A DNA stretch of 64,000 nt from an uncultured Bacilli bacterium (GTDB lineage: Bacteria; Bacillota_I; Bacilli_A; RF39; UBA660), in NCBI GenBank assembly GCA_944329365.1, contig CALVIC010000001.1, forward strand, positions 25,120-89,119, in the 5' to 3' direction. Below, piece by piece: positions 50,523-56,482 of the stretch; position 1 is the first letter of the stretch; each line of letters starts with the position of its first letter. Below the pieces are notes generated by a model, which ran no database searches, was not told the DNA's origin, and saw nothing but the letters and a program-made list of their open reading frames with translations. The position numbers and the translations under genes were made by a program.

Positions 50523-50668
50523 TGACACTCATTGACTTTTAAGTAAATGAGTGTCTATACACACATAGGTAGACATTCAACTTAACGGCATTGAATGTTC
50601 CTTTTTTATTATATGAAGTTTCCTTCATCTATATACATCGTAACACAAAATTAACTTTATGACAAATT
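50523..50668 (+). repeat. Composite intergenic repeat, copy A: hairpin GACACTCATT/AATGAGTGTC, terminator-like hairpin ACATTCAA/TTGAATGT plus T6, then a conserved 68-nt core.
   Basis: Core CCTTTTTTATTATATGAAGTTTCCTTCATCTATATACATCGTAACACAAAATTAACTTTATGACAAATT is shared with copies 1, B and C. Confidence 0.75.
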
Positions 50669-50772
50669 TTAGAGTAATTTATTATTAAATATAAAATGGT
50701 ATATATGAATTATTTAATGTAGAGATTTTATATTATTGGCTTACGTTTTTTTAACAAAAAGTTTAAAAAGCA

Positions 50773-50800
50773 TTGATTTTTAATAACTTAATGTTATAAT
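50773..50800 (+). promoter_or_regulatory. Promoter of the precursor-peptide gene: TTGATT-16 nt-TGtTATAAT (extended -10)
   Basis: TTGATT 50773-50778. TG 50792-50793. TATAAT 50795-50800. Confidence 0.6.
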
Positions 50801-50819
50801 TTAATAAAGGAGGTAAATT

Positions 50820-50915
50820 ATGAAGAAAATTGATTTAACAAAACTTTTAAACAACAAGAATTCTGTTATGCCTGACTGTGGTCCAAGTCATTCTTGTGGC
50901 GGCGGTGGAAGATAA
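50820..50915 (+). CDS. 31-aa Cys/Gly-rich peptide MKKIDLTKLLNNKNSVMPDCGPSHSCGGGGR, a candidate RiPP precursor
   Basis: AAAGGAGG RBS 8 nt upstream of the ATG. Immediately upstream of a radical-SAM/SPASM gene. Followed by the hairpin TTAGC-TTCG-GCTAA plus a T-rich tract (50916-50939), likely an attenuator. Confidence 0.6.
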   Translation: MKKIDLTKLLNNKNSVMPDCGPSHSCGGGGR

Positions 50916-50947
50916 TTAGCTTCGGCTAATTATTTTGTTAGTGAGAG

Positions 50948-52162
50948 ATGAATAAGAAATTTGTTGTTAATAATCATGAATATGTTTTTGATGGAAATAA
51001 TTTAGAATTATATTTAGTAAAAGACGGTGTTAAAAACACGGATGAAAAATCATGTTCTAGTATTTTTAAAAAGGAACCTGGTAAATTATATAAATTAGTG
51101 TTCAATGTAGCTAATTTGTGTAATTTGAATTGCAAATATTGTTATGCAAGTGGCGGTAATTATAACCGAGAAAATAATGTTATGAGTTTTGAGCAAGCAG
51201 ATAAGATTTTGGAAAAGGTTTTCAAAAAATATTCTAAACTTGAAACAGTATATTTTTTTGGCGGAGAACCTCTTTTGAATTTTAAACTCATTAAATATCT
51301 TGTAGAAAAAATTGAAAAACATTATAATGGTTCTAGGATAGACTTTAGAACAGTAACAAACGGAATGTTTTTGACTCCAAAAAGAATAGATTTTATGAAT
51401 GATCATAATTTTAAATTATATGTAAGTCTTGATGGGCCAAAACAAATTCATGAATATTTGAGAGGGGCTGGGACATTTGATTTAATAATGGATAATTTGA
51501 AATATTTAAAAAATAAGGATTTTGCTTCTAAAACAGAAATACTTTGTACATATACTAGATATCATCAAGAGCATATAACCTTAGAAGATTTGGAAGTTTT
51601 TTTTAAAAAATTAGGTTTTCGTTATTCAATTCACGGTGTTGATACAAATGATGAGTCTTTGAAATTAATTGAAGATGGAATAACATATGAAGAAAGCGAA
51701 AAGAATTTTATAGATATTTCTATGGATAGAATTATTAATGATTCTATGAATGTAGGTACTAGCTATTATCTTACTTCTGTAATTAATGCTTTATTGTTTC
51801 ATAACAAGCAAGATTATTTTTGTAAGGAATTAGTGAATGATTATTCTAATGTGTTTGATTACAATGGTGATGAATATAGTTGTATTAGATTTTTAGGAAC
51901 ACATGGTAAGAATGATAAAGAGATAAAAGAGAAAAATGTAAAATCAGCAGATGTTTGTAAAAAATGTTGGTGTAGATATTTATGTAATTTATGTTTAGCT
52001 GATATTATCATGGGTATAAACGATTATCCTTTTGATGGTGATGATTGTTCGATTAAGTCACTTTATGAATATGCTCTTCAAAAAATAGTAGATCTTATGG
52101 AAAAAAATCCTTCGAAATTAAATTTATTGGTAAATAATTATATTGACAATTTTATAAAATAG
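50948..52162 (+). CDS. radical SAM enzyme with a C-terminal SPASM-type auxiliary-cluster domain and an N-terminal extension of about 55 aa. Candidate peptide-modifying maturase.
   Basis: CxxxCxxC motif (CNLNCKYC) at residues 58-65. The C-terminal Cys cluster CKKCWCRYLCNLC plus upstream Cys residues fits a SPASM/twitch domain. Position directly after the small peptide ORF. Confidence 0.75.
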   Translation: MNKKFVVNNHEYVFDGNNLELYLVKDGVKNTDEKSCSSIFKKEPGKLYKLVFNVANLCNLNCKYCYASGGNYNRENNVMSFEQADKILEKVFKKYSKLETVYFFGGEPLLNFKLIKYLVEKIEKHYNGSRIDFRTVTNGMFLTPKRIDFMNDHNFKLYVSLDGPKQIHEYLRGAGTFDLIMDNLKYLKNKDFASKTEILCTYTRYHQEHITLEDLEVFFKKLGFRYSIHGVDTNDESLKLIEDGITYEESEKNFIDISMDRIINDSMNVGTSYYLTSVINALLFHNKQDYFCKELVNDYSNVFDYNGDEYSCIRFLGTHGKNDKEIKEKNVKSADVCKKCWCRYLCNLCLADIIMGINDYPFDGDDCSIKSLYEYALQKIVDLMEKNPSKLNLLVNNYIDNFIK

Positions 52163-52174
52163 GAGGTGTTAAAG

Positions 52175-55069: not shown

Positions 55070-55075
55070 AAATAT

Positions 55076-55900
55076 ATGAAGAGTAAGTTTGAAGTAAGTA
55101 AAGAATTTTTGAAAAACGATGATATTTTGAAATGCCCAATATGTGGTGAGAGACTTTTATTTTTAGATAAATCTTTAAAATGTGATAAACACAGTTTTGA
55201 CATTTCAAGAAAGGGAACGATAAACTTAGTTTATAGTAAACATTATAAGAATAGTAAAATCTACAATTATGAGCTTTTTAAGAACAGAAGAGAGTTTATT
55301 ATAGGTGGTTTTTACTTTAGATTATATAAATTTATTTCGGATATATTAAATGACAGATTTTCTTCTGAATGCACGATTTTAGATTTAGGGTGCGGAGAGG
55401 GTAGTCATAGCAAGTTTATTTTAGATTTACTTAAGTTTGATTATAAATATTATGGTTTTGATTATGCGAAGGATGCGATAAAATTAGCTAGTGATTATAT
55501 AAACTATAATAGGTTTTATTTTTTAGGTGATGTGAATAGGATTCCTATTTTGGATAGTTCTATAGATATTATTTTAGATATACTTTCACCTTTTAATGAA
55601 AAAGAGGTAAAAAGAATTATTAAAGATAGTGGGGTGTTTATAAAGGTTTCACCAGGCAAGAATTATTTAAAAGAGTTAAGAGATGTTTTAAATATGGAAG
55701 AATATAATAATGAAAATGATGTATTTGATAATCTACAAAAGAGGTTTAAAAAAATAGATAAATATAATTTAAATTATAAGATAGAGATTAACGAAGATAA
55801 TTTTCAAAATTTAGTTAAAATGACGCCTGCAAAAAAGAATAACTCTTCGGTTATTTCATTTGTAACAATAGATTTGAATGTGTATGTTATTAGAATATAA
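55076..55900 (+). CDS. RlmA-like 23S rRNA (guanine-N1)-methyltransferase with an N-terminal zinc ribbon
   Basis: CPICGERL…CDKHSFDISRKGTINLV N-terminus typical of RlmA(I/II). SAM-binding motif LDLGCGEGS. Confidence 0.7.
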   Translation: MKSKFEVSKEFLKNDDILKCPICGERLLFLDKSLKCDKHSFDISRKGTINLVYSKHYKNSKIYNYELFKNRREFIIGGFYFRLYKFISDILNDRFSSECTILDLGCGEGSHSKFILDLLKFDYKYYGFDYAKDAIKLASDYINYNRFYFLGDVNRIPILDSSIDIILDILSPFNEKEVKRIIKDSGVFIKVSPGKNYLKELRDVLNMEEYNNENDVFDNLQKRFKKIDKYNLNYKIEINEDNFQNLVKMTPAKKNNSSVISFVTIDLNVYVIRI

Positions 55901-55904
55901 AAAG

Positions 55905-56116
55905 GCTCATTTACTTTTTTAGTAAATGAGTGTTTACTCATATTGGTAGACGTTCAACTTAAAGTGAACTGTCCATTTTTCGGGGGACAGTTCACTGTGA
56001 TTAGGTGAAACCAAAAATCTTGGCAACATCCAACATGGAAGTATTGAACGTTCCTTTTTTATTATATGAAGGAACCTTCATATATATTGTAATATAAAAT
56101 CAACTTTAAAGACAAA
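55905..56116 (+). repeat. Composite intergenic repeat, copy B. Contains an extra nested hairpin GTGAACTGTCC/GGACAGTTCAC inserted in the second stem-loop. The conserved hairpin shows compensatory changes.
   Basis: CCTTTTTTATTATATGAAGGAACCTTCATATATATTGTAATATAAAATCAACTTTAAAGACAAA aligned to the copy A core. Confidence 0.7.
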
Positions 56117-56248
56117 CAAAAGTACGTGTCTTTTTACAAAAAGTTATGAAATATATTGCAATTTATATAACTATTCGTTATCTTTATATATAAGGAATGT
56201 TCAATAGAGTTGGTGCGGCCTTCAATTAAAGAATTGGAGGTGATGATT

Positions 56249-56326
56249 ATGACCAAAAGAGAAAGCTCTCTTTATTTTATAATCATACTTCTTTTAATTT
56301 TAGTATTTAAACTTTTATTTAATTAA
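56249..56326 (+). CDS. 25-aa hydrophobic peptide MTKRESSLYFIIILLLILVFKLLFN. Candidate type-I-toxin-like or membrane micro-protein.
   Basis: GGAGGTG RBS 8 nt upstream of the ATG. Polar N-terminus followed by a single TM-length hydrophobic stretch. Lies exactly between repeat copies B and C. Hairpin GCACCTAA/TTAGGTGC starts right after the stop codon. Confidence 0.45.
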   Translation: MTKRESSLYFIIILLLILVFKLLFN

Positions 56327-56327
56327 A

Positions 56328-56482
56328 AGAATGCACCTAACTCATCAACAATGATTTAGGTGCGCCAAATAATTTTATATATAGGTCGCATTCAACATTG
56401 CAGCATTGAATGTTCCTTTTTATTATATGAAGTTTCCTTCATCTATATTCATTGTAACACAAAATTAACTTTATGACAAATT
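56328..56482 (+). repeat. Composite intergenic repeat, copy C
   Basis: …GGTCGCATTCAACATTGCAGCATTGAATGTTCCTTTTTATTATATGAAGTTTCCTTCATCTATATTCATTGTAACACAAAATTAACTTTATGACAAATT. The core differs from copy A at only a few positions. Confidence 0.75.

What the first reader, a model, noticed from the sequence alone, without database searches (positions are those of the whole stretch)
50523..56482. Novel composite intergenic repeat family: 4 copies in 64 kb, 3 of them around the peptide/rSAM block
Each copy consists of a variable hairpin, a terminator-like hairpin with a T5-6 run, a conserved 24-nt hairpin (TATATGAAG-loop-CTTCATATA) and a conserved tail of about 40 nt (…CATYGTAACACAAAATTAACTTTATGACAAATT). 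Copies A (50523-50668), B (55905-56116) and C (56328-56482) are direct. Copy 1 (2354-2434) is inverted. Copy B keeps the conserved hairpin by compensatory changes (GAAGTTTCCTTC versus GAAGGAACCTTC), which argues for selection on structure at the RNA or DNA level. Copy B also carries a nested extra hairpin. The conserved part lies downstream of the terminator, which is atypical for a simple terminator. Candidates are a REP/BOX/RUP-like mobile mini-element, a small-RNA gene family, or recombination sites flanking the 5.4-kb peptide-rSAM-ABC-F-MTase block between direct copies A and B.
Basis: seen in the sequence. Interest (0 to 1): 0.65.

Follow-up and report, generated by a model that had tools for sequence, protein, structure and literature searches.

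The report
Toxin–antisense RNA gene pairs, repeated
The four "intergenic repeats" are copies of a small-RNA gene on the opposite strand, each facing a tiny membrane-peptide gene. This layout matches a type I toxin–antitoxin module, here from a family that none of the RNA or protein libraries searched contains, found in uncultured gut bacteria; two of the four copies are decayed.

Summary
The repeat is real: four copies, with none expected by chance.

On the opposite strand, the "conserved tail" is a sigma-A promoter: TTG, a 17-nt spacer, then TGnTAnnAT. The "conserved 24-nt hairpin" is the 5'-terminal hairpin of an RNA of about 115 nt, with a GNRA loop. The "variable hairpin" is that RNA's terminator. 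The "terminator with a T-run" ends a convergent transcript.

In copy 1 and copy C, the convergent transcript encodes a 25-29-aa hydrophobic peptide. Its ribosome-binding site is sequestered, and its 5' end is predicted to pair with its 3' end. Copy A keeps the small RNA, but its peptide gene is frameshifted and has no ribosome-binding site. Copy B is a mosaic with no peptide gene.

The same module occurs 95 times in 71 loci plus this window, almost all from uncultured gut Bacillota MAGs. There are at least 5-8 detectable copies in the best-sampled MAGs, often in tandem. At least 70% of the copies that could be assessed have an intact peptide ORF.

The middle hairpin covaries strongly, on the small-RNA strand. 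Nothing matches in Rfam, Pfam or NCBIfam.

The best reading is a new family of type I toxin–antitoxin modules, closest in architecture to B. subtilis bsrG/SR4. Toxicity and transcription are inferred, not shown. The repeat copies do not bracket a mobile block.

The parts
2336..2364 (+). Promoter of small RNA 1: -35 TTGTAG (2336-2341), 17-nt spacer, TG (2356-2357), -10 TACAAT (2359-2364).
   Evidence: Read from the sequence. The positions match the family promoter profile, in which only TTG, TG, TA and AT are at least 90% conserved.
2371..2488 (+). Small RNA 1, a predicted antitoxin of about 118 nt. It has a 5' hairpin HP1 (2373-2388, GAAA loop), an A-tract, a middle hairpin HP2 (~2398-2431) and a terminator HP3 (2451-2479) followed by U7.
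   Evidence: CM hit at 2368-2483 (+), 82.4 bits. Terminator found. Fold.
2478..2567 (-). Peptide ORF 1 (putative toxin): MNKKDFLITFQVIIIILLIVSLMILCIKK, 29 aa. The SD AAGGAG lies at 2580-2585. The stop codon lies inside the terminator stem of small RNA 1.
   Evidence: tblastn E 6e-8 to family peptides. The same ORF is present in L039.
2389..2664 (-). Peptide mRNA 1. The promoter is TGCACA-16-TATAAT with TG (2664-2637). The transcript runs ~2631 to ~2389 and ends at the complement of HP2 plus a U-run. Its 5' end (AGGGAAUACUUUAAC...) pairs with its 3' end.
   Evidence: Promoter, sequence. The MFE fold has 22 bp between the first 30 and last 45 nt.
50515..50665 (-). Small RNA A with its promoter: -35 TTGTCA (50665-50660) and TG + -10 TACGAT (50642-50637). 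The RNA runs ~50630 to ~50515, with HP1 at 50613-50628, HP2 at 50568-50601 and terminator HP3 at 50524-50555 followed by U7.
   Evidence: Promoter. CM hit at 50520-50633 (-), 92.2 bits. Fold.
50438..50525 (+). Peptide gene A, a pseudogene. The remnant ...SFNIIKVLRYIFIILLNPIILVISIKK* (50442-50525) is homologous to intact peptides such as MSKRIFAIKVLRYISIILLLLTLLVIAIKK. The ATG at 50438 is out of frame (ATG AAG TTT TAA) and there is no SD.
   Evidence: tblastn E 9e-6. Compared with the intact L017, L036 and L037 genes. Sequence.
55900..56115 (-). Copy B, a decayed mosaic small-RNA gene with no peptide gene.
- Weak promoter: TTGTCT-18-TACAAT, no TG, and a 4-nt deletion before HP1.
- HP1 at 56066-56081 has a GUUC loop instead of GNRA.
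- The body is B-type up to ~55996.
- An inserted hairpin follows at 55964-55995.
- An A-like 3' fragment and a terminator (55930-55906) complete it.
- On the + strand, HP2 plus the T-run (~56026-56062) is the only terminator-like structure noticed by eye after the ABC-F to methyltransferase operon; the automatic scan reported no + strand terminator there.
   Evidence: 73.5 bits. Window 55904-55994 is not homologous to L001 3695-3808.
56156..56426 (+). Peptide mRNA C. The promoter is TTGCAA-17-TATCTT (56156-56184). The transcript runs ~56192 to 56426. The 5' element is AAGGAAUGUUCAAUAGAGUUGGUGCGGCC. An anti-SD (CCUUCAAUU) pairs with AAUUGGAGG. The mRNA ends at the complement of HP2 plus a U-run.
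   Evidence: Sequence. The MFE fold has 29 bp between the first 30 and last 45 nt, and the 5'/3' duplex is -31.3 kcal/mol.
56249..56326 (+). Peptide ORF C (putative toxin): MTKRESSLYFIIILLLILVFKLLFN, 25 aa, with SD GGAGGTG at 56236-56242.
   Evidence: An identical ORF is present in L001.
56322..56479 (-). Small RNA C with its promoter: -35 TTGTCA (56479-56474) and TG + -10 TACAAT (56456-51). The RNA runs ~56444 to ~56322, with HP1 at 56427-56442, HP2 at ~56385-56418 and terminator HP3 at 56333-56363. It overlaps peptide mRNA C by about 103 nt, including the stop codon.
   Evidence: Promoter. CM hit at 56328-56447 (-), 90.1 bits. Fold.

Best explanation
Each repeat copy is a module of two convergent genes.

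**The small RNA.** One strand carries a small RNA of about 115 nt, made from its own sigma-A promoter. The RNA starts with a short hairpin capped by a GNRA loop. An A-tract follows, then a second hairpin and an intrinsic terminator.

**The peptide mRNA.** The other strand carries an mRNA of about 235 nt for a 21-33-aa hydrophobic peptide.
- It runs through the complement of the small RNA's terminator.
- It ends at the complement of the second hairpin plus a U-run.
- The two RNAs are therefore fully complementary over about 100 nt, including the stop codon.
- Its ribosome-binding site is buried in a local hairpin.
- Its extreme 5' end is a near copy of the small RNA's second hairpin, so it pairs with the mRNA's own 3' end and closes the molecule.

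**Inferred mechanism, by analogy with B. subtilis bsrG/SR4.**
- The small RNA is the antitoxin.
- It pairs with the 3' region of the peptide mRNA and displaces the mRNA's 5' end.
- The resulting duplex is cut by RNase III, so the peptide is not made.
- When the small RNA is lost, the peptide inserts into the membrane and harms the cell.

**State of the four copies in this window.** Copy 1 and copy C are intact pairs. Copy A keeps the small RNA next to a dead peptide gene. Copy B is a decayed mosaic.

**What is shown and what is not.** The sequence anatomy, its conservation and the covariation are shown. Transcription, toxicity and repression are inferred.
For: **1. The 17-nt spacer carries no information. 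The promoter scan also finds these sites in the window.

**2. RNA structure on that strand.**
- The covariance model scores 73-92 bits on that strand and at most 26 bits on the other.
- All 8 pairs of hairpin 2 show changes on both sides.
- 96.9% of cells pair, against 28-45% when the partners are slid.
- No shuffle out of 500 reaches the observed values.
- About 107 G-U cells would be A-C mismatches on the other strand.
- 63 of 71 HP1 loops are GNRA.
- Copies found without using HP1 show compensated stems, for example TCAAG-GAAA-CTTGA and CAAG-GAGA-CTTG.

**3. Terminators.** Each of the four window copies has a hairpin followed by a T-run on the small-RNA strand. The scan detects two of them (B and copy 1). 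Those of A and C are read from the sequence and the folds. Hairpins of this kind are seen across the loci.

**4. Convergent peptide ORF.**
- 48 of 69 copies with enough flanking sequence have an SD plus a hydrophobic ORF. The ORF's stop codon lies 102-130 nt from the core.
- Several of the remaining copies are intact on manual reading.
- The peptides fall into subfamilies that keep their length and hydrophobicity while the DNA diverges to about 70% identity.

**5. Inert mRNA fold.**
- The SD has a mean unpaired probability of 0.26.
- In 34 of 36 mRNAs, at least 10 bp (mean 22) join the first 30 nt to the last 45 nt. With a shuffled 5' end the mean is 3.5.
- The duplex energy is -29.1 kcal/mol for the cognate 3' end, -14.3 for non-cognate ends and -18.4 against the small RNA.
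- The two window mRNAs show 29 and 22 bp of such pairing.

**6. Family behaviour typical of type I loci.**
- The best-sampled incomplete MAGs hold 5-8 detectable copies.
- Tandem arrays have a period of about 360-380 nt.
- Frameshifted or orphan copies are common.

**7. Published parallel.** bsrG mRNA has a 5'-3' helix P1 and a sequestered SD. SR4 is complementary to its 3' end and acts through RNase III and through a structural change at the SD (PMC3834814).
Against: - There are no expression data. Transcript ends and strands are predictions.
- Toxicity of the peptides is untested.
- Many of the peptides lack the charged C-terminal tail common in known type I toxins.
- None of the peptides matches a known toxin family.
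- Blocking the 3' region in silico does not change SD accessibility in any consistent direction: it closes further in 6 of 36 mRNAs and opens in 6 of 36. The translational arm of the bsrG analogy therefore has no support here.
- The strong sequence conservation of HP1 is partly due to ascertainment, because the loci were fetched with a pattern that contains it. Its function is unexplained.
- The SD-to-ATG spacing of 9-12 nt is rather long.
- Half of the window copies lack a functional peptide gene, so at those sites the small RNA cannot be acting as an antitoxin in cis.
Confidence: 0.75

Rival explanations
1. The anatomy is the same, but the function is regulatory rather than toxic. The peptides are ordinary small membrane proteins, and the antisense RNA simply tunes their level. 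There is no addiction or killing function.
For: - No similarity to any known toxin.
- The copies are chromosomal and sit between housekeeping genes.
- None of 2.9 million viral contigs carries the core.
- Many peptides end without a charged tail.
Against: - There are multiple paralogues per small genome.
- They form tandem arrays.
- Peptide genes are frequently pseudogenised while the RNA is retained.
- SD sequestration combined with 5'-3' closure of the mRNA is the signature of genes whose product is dangerous.
- An ordinary membrane protein would not be expected in 5-8 diverged copies, each with a private antisense RNA.
Confidence: 0.15
2. The repeat is a non-coding mobile mini-element (REP/BOX/RUP/MITE-like), or a set of recombination sites that bracket and move the 5.4-kb peptide-rSAM-ABC-F-methyltransferase block.
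For: - Several copies occur per genome, in intergenic positions.
- A and B are direct repeats 5.45 kb apart.
- Assemblies of a relative break at the core (L024, L001).
- Copy B is a mosaic of B-type and A-type sequence, so copies do recombine.
Against: - No terminal inverted repeats or target-site duplications were noticed when reading the flanks; no dedicated scan was run.
- Upstream conservation is limited to the promoter positions.
- The unit includes a conserved ORF.
- Covariation is strand-specific.
- Relative L019 keeps the collinear stretch held in the locus, from the left flank through the peptide and radical-SAM genes to window ~53,900.
- In the Ca. Coprosoma contigs only the peptide plus rSAM segment is missing. 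Its right boundary (~52150) is not at a repeat copy.
Confidence: 0.04
3. The elements are mainly bidirectional transcription terminators for the flanking operons. The conserved hairpin and tail would be incidental, or a protein-binding site, and not part of any RNA gene.
For: - Hairpin 2 plus a T-run sits directly after the 84-aa gene operon (A) and after the methyltransferase operon (B) on the + strand.
- Copies A and B have no working peptide gene.
Against: - Copy 1's 'terminator' faces no annotated-size gene, only the 29-aa ORF.
- A terminator role does not explain the conserved promoter geometry, the GNRA loop or the second terminator on the other strand.
- G-U pairs favour the small-RNA strand, not the mRNA strand.
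Confidence: 0.06

Closest known systems
bsrG/SR4 of Bacillus subtilis, and the related 3'-overlapping Gram-positive type I systems txpA/RatA, bsrE/SR5 and yonT/SR6
   Same: - The genes are convergent.
- The antisense RNA lies on the 3' side and overlaps the end of the ORF (T1TAdb description, PMC8594479).
- The antisense RNA is built of several stem-loops, the last of which is the terminator.
- The toxin mRNA is closed by a helix between its 5' end and its 3' region, and its SD is in a short helix (PMC3834814).
- Here: about 100 nt of overlap, 22-29 bp of 5'-3' pairing and a sequestered SD.
   Different: - No sequence or covariance-model similarity. The one BsrG model hit (12.5 bits against a gathering score of 55) is at chance level and does not recur.
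- The peptides are shorter (21-33 aa against 38-59 aa, figures from memory) and unrelated.
- The 5' end pairs with the arms of the mRNA's own terminator, not with a segment upstream of it.
- The small RNA carries an extra conserved 5' GNRA hairpin outside the overlap.
- The modules are not on prophages here: none of the viral contigs scanned carries the core, and the window copies sit between housekeeping genes.
hok/sok (plasmid R1) and aapA1/IsoA1 (Helicobacter pylori)
   Same: - The full-length toxin mRNA is locked by a long-distance 5'-3' interaction (my knowledge of Franch et al. 1997 and Arnion et al. 2017, both cited in PMC8594479).
- One subfamily seen in other loci (peptides starting ME...) also has an upstream overlapping ORF with a strong SD, reminiscent of mok.
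   Different: - In those systems the antisense RNA targets the 5' translation-initiation region, and 3' trimming activates the mRNA.
- Here the antisense RNA covers the 3' partner of the interaction itself.
- Those systems are in Gram-negative hosts and their peptides are unrelated.
par (fst/RNA II) of Enterococcus faecalis pAD1
   Same: Convergent toxin and antitoxin RNAs in a low-GC Gram-positive host, a small hydrophobic peptide and a 5' structure in the toxin mRNA.
   Different: - In par the two RNAs share one bidirectional terminator. They interact mainly through 5' direct repeats outside the overlap (PMC8594479).
- Here each RNA has its own terminator, and the overlap is about 100 nt.
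- Here the repeat between the toxin 5' end and the small RNA is same-sense, not complementary.
- No Fst-family match.
REP/BOX/RUP intergenic repeats
   Same: Short, multi-copy and intergenic, with hairpins.
   Different: The elements here have a promoter, an ORF, two terminators and strand-specific covariation. No evidence of transposition was seen.

Membership tests
Type I toxin-antitoxin systems (the general kind) | A small (<60 aa) hydrophobic peptide gene. | tested here: met
   ORFs of 25 and 29 aa in the window. ORFs of 21-33 aa with an SD in 48 of 69 assessable copies, and more on manual reading.
Type I toxin-antitoxin systems (the general kind) | A cis-encoded antisense RNA gene overlapping the peptide mRNA. 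| tested here: met
   Met at sequence level only: a conserved promoter, a terminator, covariation on that strand and about 100 nt of overlap. Transcription itself was not observed.
Type I toxin-antitoxin systems (the general kind) | The peptide is toxic when expressed. | not testable with these tools
   Needs expression in cells.
Type I toxin-antitoxin systems (the general kind) | The RNA represses translation or stability of the peptide mRNA. | not testable with these tools
   Inferred only from complementarity.
Type I toxin-antitoxin systems (the general kind) | The toxin mRNA folds so as to hide the ribosome-binding site. | tested here: met
   Mean unpaired probability of the SD is 0.26. 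Anti-SD hairpins such as CCUCC...GGAGG are seen.
bsrG/SR4 - txpA/RatA group | The antisense RNA lies on the 3' side and overlaps the end of the ORF. | tested here: met
   The stop codon lies inside the small RNA's terminator.
bsrG/SR4 - txpA/RatA group | A helix joins the 5' end and the 3' region of the toxin mRNA. | tested here: met
   Predicted in 34 of 36 mRNAs and specific to the cognate 3' end. Not probed experimentally.
bsrG/SR4 - txpA/RatA group | Homology of the RNAs to the family models. | tested here: not met
   No Rfam hit at gathering score. The BsrG model scores 12.5 bits against 55 once and does not recur.
bsrG/SR4 - txpA/RatA group | Homology of the peptide to BsrG/TxpA-type toxins. 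| tested here: not met
   No Pfam family at E <= 10. NCBIfam gives only weak sub-threshold matches to unrelated small membrane-protein models (best E 0.02, 14.6 bits against a cut-off of 33) for ten representative peptides.
fst/RNA II (par) | A single shared bidirectional terminator, plus complementary 5' direct repeats. | tested here: not met
   Each RNA has its own terminator. The repeat between the toxin 5' end and the small RNA is same-sense. The 5' end pairs with its own 3' end (-29 kcal/mol) better than with the small RNA (-18).
hok/sok | The antisense RNA targets the 5' leader or the mok start. | tested here: not met
   The small RNA overlaps the 3' end only.
REP/BOX/RUP-type non-coding mobile repeats | No genes inside the element. 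Conserved ends or inverted repeats. Copies scattered independently of gene structure. | tested here: not met
   The unit has a promoter, an ORF and two terminators. No terminal repeats were seen by eye; no dedicated scan was run.
Any Rfam family | Score at or above the gathering threshold. | tested here: not met

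The most novel reading that the evidence does not exclude
The small RNA is more than a plain antisense antitoxin.

**Hairpin 2 as a mimic.** Its second hairpin mimics the 5' end of the toxin mRNA. 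It would compete with that 5' end for the mRNA's 3' terminator arms, and so operate a circular-to-open switch in the mRNA.

**A shared 5' module.** The conserved 5' module, a GNRA hairpin plus an A-tract, lies outside the overlap. It could be a handle common to all paralogues, for example for a protein partner or for cross-talk with the U-tracts of every paralogous toxin mRNA.

**Orphan copies.** Copies A and B may have been retained as antisense regulators or terminators of the adjacent housekeeping operons (ABC-F, rRNA methyltransferases, pheST).
Probability: 0.2. Interest if true: 0.7.

Novelty: new member of a known kind. Interest (0 to 1): 0.5.

Why it matters
**Reach of type I systems.** Type I toxin–antitoxin systems are hard to find by computation. 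So far they are reported from only three phyla, with few families (PMC12390103, PMC8594479). This work adds a family defined from sequence, with 95 modules, a covariance model and clear anatomy. It comes from a group of small-genome gut Bacillota that have not been cultured and whose small RNAs appear to be unstudied.

**Annotation.** The modules explain a class of intergenic repeats in these MAGs. They also explain why assemblies break at the repeats (L001, L024).

**Testable design.** The family pairs a 5'-3' closed toxin mRNA with an antisense RNA that covers the 3' partner of that closure. This design can be tested in the laboratory.

Tried and rejected
- **Known RNA families.** An Rfam gathering scan of the whole window found only the pheS T-box and a tRNA. 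Permissive Rfam scans of the three regions and of eight loci gave only chance-level hits.
- **Known protein families.** Ten peptides gave nothing in Pfam and only weak sub-threshold matches in NCBIfam.
- **A conserved tiny ORF after the AGGAAC motif on the small-RNA strand.** MPLS* and MLQC* are seen in A and C. This was rejected because copies B and 1 have no ATG there.
- **The small RNA closing the SD by binding at the 3' end, as SR4 does.** Constraining the 3' region gave no consistent change in SD accessibility. This remains an open point and was not adopted.
- **The toxin 5' element as the main target of the small RNA.** Rejected, because its duplex with its own 3' end is much stronger.
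- **A phage or mobile-element origin.** None of the viral contigs carries the core.
- **The A-B block as a cassette.** Rejected on synteny.
- **A fifth toxin-like match at window 1106-1183.** It has no start codon, SD or small RNA nearby and is left as unexplained.
- **L022 (an archaeal contig).** It matches the search pattern but not the model, so it is a chance hit.

Full report

Yes. The 26-nt core ATTATATGAAGNNNNCTTCATNTATA occurs four times in the window: 2368-2393 (-), 50608-50633 (+), 56061-56086 (+) and 56422-56447 (+). One hundred dinucleotide-preserving shuffles gave none.

One sub-claim fails. In copy B, GAAGGAACCTTC differs from GAAGTTTCCTTC only in the four loop bases. The GAAG/CTTC stem is unchanged, so there is no compensatory change.

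**2. Reading the other strand**

This is an extended -10 sigma-A promoter (C at 56479-56451, A at 50665-50637, B at 56115-56086). Copy 1 has TTGTAG-17-TACAAT on the + strand.

About 7 nt downstream, the conserved hairpin begins: AUGAAG-GAAA-CUUCAU. After it come an A-tract and a second hairpin. The scan detects it for B and copy 1. For A and C it is visible in the sequence.

Each copy is therefore a candidate small-RNA gene of about 115 nt (folds). The puzzle of a 'conserved part downstream of the terminator' disappears.

**3. What the small RNA faces**

Convergent to small RNA C is an ORF with a strong SD (GGAGGTG): 56249-56326, MTKRESSLYFIIILLLILVFKLLFN.

Convergent to small RNA 1 is 2567-2478 (-), MNKKDFLITFQVIIIILLIVSLMILCIKK. 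It has its own promoter at 2664-2637.

In both cases the stop codon lies at or inside the terminator of the small RNA. The peptide mRNA ends at the complement of hairpin 2 plus a U-run. The two RNAs overlap by about 100 nt.

**4. Relatives**

One scan of 185,579 species genomes with the core pattern returned 71 loci. Almost all are uncultured gut 'Bacilli', 'Tenericutes' or 'Firmicutes' MAGs from humans, chickens, goats, mice and rabbits. They include Candidatus Coprosoma intestinipullorum (Bacillota incertae sedis), 'Clostridium sp. CAG:451' and 'Coprobacillus sp. CAG:605'. L039 and L028 are near-identical to the copy 1 region. L001, L019 and L024 cover the A-C region at 85-98% identity.

*Promoter profile.* In 71 unique upstream regions only these positions are 90-99% conserved: TTG (-32 to -30), T-14, TG (-12/-11), TA (-9/-8), AT (-5/-4) and GTA. 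The 17-nt spacer is uninformative. This is what a working promoter looks like, and not what a mobile repeat looks like.

*HP1 loops.* 63 of 71 HP1 loops are GNRA: GAAA 54, GAGA 4, GGAA 3 and GCAA 2. The loop was left free in the search pattern.

*HP1 stems.* Fourteen further neighbouring copies were found by BLAST with the module minus HP1. They keep the hairpin, and five of them have compensated stems: TCAAG-GAAA-CTTGA, CAAG-GAGA-CTTG, GATGAAA-AAAG-TTTCATC (twice) and GATGAGA-AAAG-TCTCATC.

**5. Formal RNA evidence**

A covariance model built from 40 diverse copies (A2, R1) finds exactly four hits in the window, all on the small-RNA strand. They are A at 92 bits, C at 90, copy 1 at 82 and B at 73.5. 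The best opposite-strand score is 26 bits. The model finds 95 hits in the loci plus the window.

On the alignment of those hits:
- All 8 pairs of hairpin 2 show changes on both sides.
- 96.9% of cells pair, against 28-45% when the partners are slid.
- No shuffle out of 500 reaches the observed values.
- About 107 cells are G-U. These would be A-C mismatches on the other strand.

**6. The peptide genes are conserved**

Of 69 copies with enough flanking sequence, 48 have an SD plus a hydrophobic ORF of 21-30 aa ending 102-130 nt from the core. Manual reading rescues several more, for example MKTKTFIIKVLKLISIILLLLINLIIVIKK in L017.

The remainder are frameshifted (L034), truncated (L054, L071) or orphan.

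The peptides fall into subfamilies:
- MSKKDFLILSLIFIIF...
- MSKKDLLISLLVVIIMLLIGLLYK
- MTKREFFLYVIIFLLIIENLIFLFN
- MELLVLALIVILYTIIAIKNK
- MKTKTFVIKVLKFIAIILLLSTLLVLAIK

None matches Pfam or NCBIfam. The RNAs match nothing in Rfam. The viral collection has no copy.

**7. Fold of the peptide mRNA**

The mRNA starts a few nt after its -10 box with a sequence that is a near copy of both arms of the small RNA's hairpin 2. On the DNA this is an inverted repeat. The sequence is therefore complementary to the mRNA's own terminator region.

- In MFE folds of 36 distinct full-length mRNAs, 34 have at least 10 bp (mean 22) between the first 30 nt and the last 45 nt. With the 5' end shuffled the mean is 3.5.
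- The duplex energy with the cognate 3' end averages -29.1 kcal/mol. It is -14.3 for non-cognate 3' ends and -18.4 for the small RNA. The two ends therefore co-evolve.
- The two window mRNAs show 29 and 22 such pairs.
- The SD is mostly paired to an upstream anti-SD, with a mean unpaired probability of 0.26.

**8. Mechanism**

Shown here: the anatomy, its conservation and the covariation.

Inferred: this is a type I toxin–antitoxin module of the Gram-positive, 3'-overlapping kind. The closest published case is bsrG/SR4.
- bsrG mRNA has a helix P1 between nt 1-35 and nt 232-262, and its SD lies in a short helix.
- SR4 is complementary to the 3' end, including the 3' arm of P1 and the terminator.
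- SR4 triggers RNase III-dependent decay and tightens the SD helix (PMC3834814).

By analogy, the small RNA here pairs with the 3' 100 nt, displaces the mRNA's 5' end and exposes the duplex to RNase III. My in-silico test for an SR4-like effect on the SD was inconclusive. I therefore commit only to the decay arm.

The function of the conserved 5' GNRA hairpin is unknown. It lies outside the overlap. A role as a 5'-end stabiliser is the simplest guess. Its conservation is partly an effect of how the loci were fetched.

**9. The four window copies**

- **Copy 1 and copy C** are intact pairs.
- **Copy A** keeps a good promoter and small RNA. Its peptide gene is dead. The remnant SFNIIKVLRYIFIILLNPIILVISIKK* (50442-50525; tblastn E 9e-6) is out of frame with the ATG at 50438 and has no SD.
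- **Copy B** has a weaker promoter, a 4-nt deletion before HP1 and a non-GNRA loop. Its body changes at ~55995 into an inserted hairpin (55964-55995) followed by an A-like 3' fragment. The homologous site in L001 carries a truncated peptide remnant instead.

B and C form a tandem pair 361 nt apart. This is the same period as the tandem arrays in L050, L055 and L038. Tandem duplication and hydrophobicity are recognised hallmarks of type I loci (PMC8594479).

**10. The 5.4-kb block**

The genes between A and B are a 31-aa peptide gene, a radical-SAM enzyme, an ABC-F protein, a SpoU methylase, a NUDIX hydrolase and an RlmA-like methyltransferase.

L019 is collinear with the window from the left flank through the peptide and radical-SAM genes to ~53,900, where the matched stretch ends.

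In Ca. Coprosoma, one contig ends in the core of copy A (L024). Another contig starts with a core followed directly by the ABC-F gene (L001 1-150; compare). Only the peptide plus radical-SAM pair (~50670-52150) is missing or unplaced there.

The right edge of that segment is not at a repeat copy. The repeats are therefore not cassette boundaries, although copies do recombine with each other, as the mosaic copy B shows.

**11. Verdict**

- The 'small-RNA gene family' candidate is right in kind, but the element was read on the wrong strand and the peptide genes were missed.
- The element is a new family within a known kind, type I toxin–antitoxin modules.
- It works most like bsrG/SR4, but it fails every homology test for membership of that or any other named family.
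- Literature searches found no description of such a family in these organisms. That is not proof that none exists.

Noticed in passing
window 50820-52162: A 31-aa peptide gene (MKKIDLTKLLNNKNSVMPDCGPSHSCG...) is followed by a radical-SAM enzyme, which looks like a RiPP-type pair. L019 has the segment. In Ca. Coprosoma intestinipullorum an A-like core is followed directly by the ABC-F gene (L001 1-150), so the segment is absent or unplaced there. It is therefore a variable insertion next to the promoter of small RNA A.
   Followed up: partly
L046, L006, L059, L051, L002 (toxin 5' regions): The subfamily of peptides starting ME... has an upstream ORF with a strong SD, for example MKIFSERKPVNGS... 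or MHINIITGGLCWNYLF. This ORF overlaps the SD and start of the hydrophobic ORF. The arrangement resembles mok/hok and suggests translational coupling. It is not present in the window.
   Followed up: partly
window 1106-1183 (+): The translated stretch KRDYLISFFLWIIFILYVIIYVILIK resembles the family peptides (tblastn E 4e-6 with composition correction off). It has no start codon, SD or small-RNA gene nearby, and it overlaps the end of the ORF at 75-1121. It may be an old remnant or an AT-rich chance match.
   Followed up: partly
window 55964-55995: Copy B contains a perfect 12-bp hairpin, GTGAACTGTCC-attttcggg-GGACAGTTCAC, that is absent from the homologous site in L001. Its origin is unknown. 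It sits at the junction of the B-type and A-type parts of the mosaic.
   Followed up: no
window 56564-56762 and 60367-60441: A T-box leader (128 bits) lies upstream of pheS/pheT. Its promoter (56523-56550) is divergent from the promoter of small RNA C and about 45 nt away. A tRNA-Cys gene lies on the minus strand.
   Followed up: no
L055 599-1792; L050 153-982; L038 3231-3726; L005 7066-7929: Other MAGs carry tandem arrays of two to four complete modules with a period of about 355-380 nt. The members have diverged, and some have altered HP1 stems.
   Followed up: partly
window 19059-19161 and 25295-25590: Two direct repeats of 36-63 nt at 81-89% identity lie 6.2-6.4 kb apart, at the starts of two ORFs (19378.. 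and 25315..). They look like paralogous gene starts with similar upstream regions.
   Followed up: no
whole window: GC skew is strongly positive throughout (0.1-0.46 in every 2-kb bin), and almost all long ORFs are on the + strand. GC content is 23-33%. This fits a small-genome, low-GC Bacillota chromosome arm read along the leading strand.
   Followed up: no
L067 ~3300-3400 and L003 ~1400-1500 (toxin strand): Some modules carry longer, more amphipathic peptides, such as MNSKEIILLYFLKILDKILDFIKLVFLLAFLRG and MSQNRKFILQIFDYIITILWQVIFILSIIKK. The same small-RNA scaffold is therefore paired with quite different peptides.
   Followed up: no
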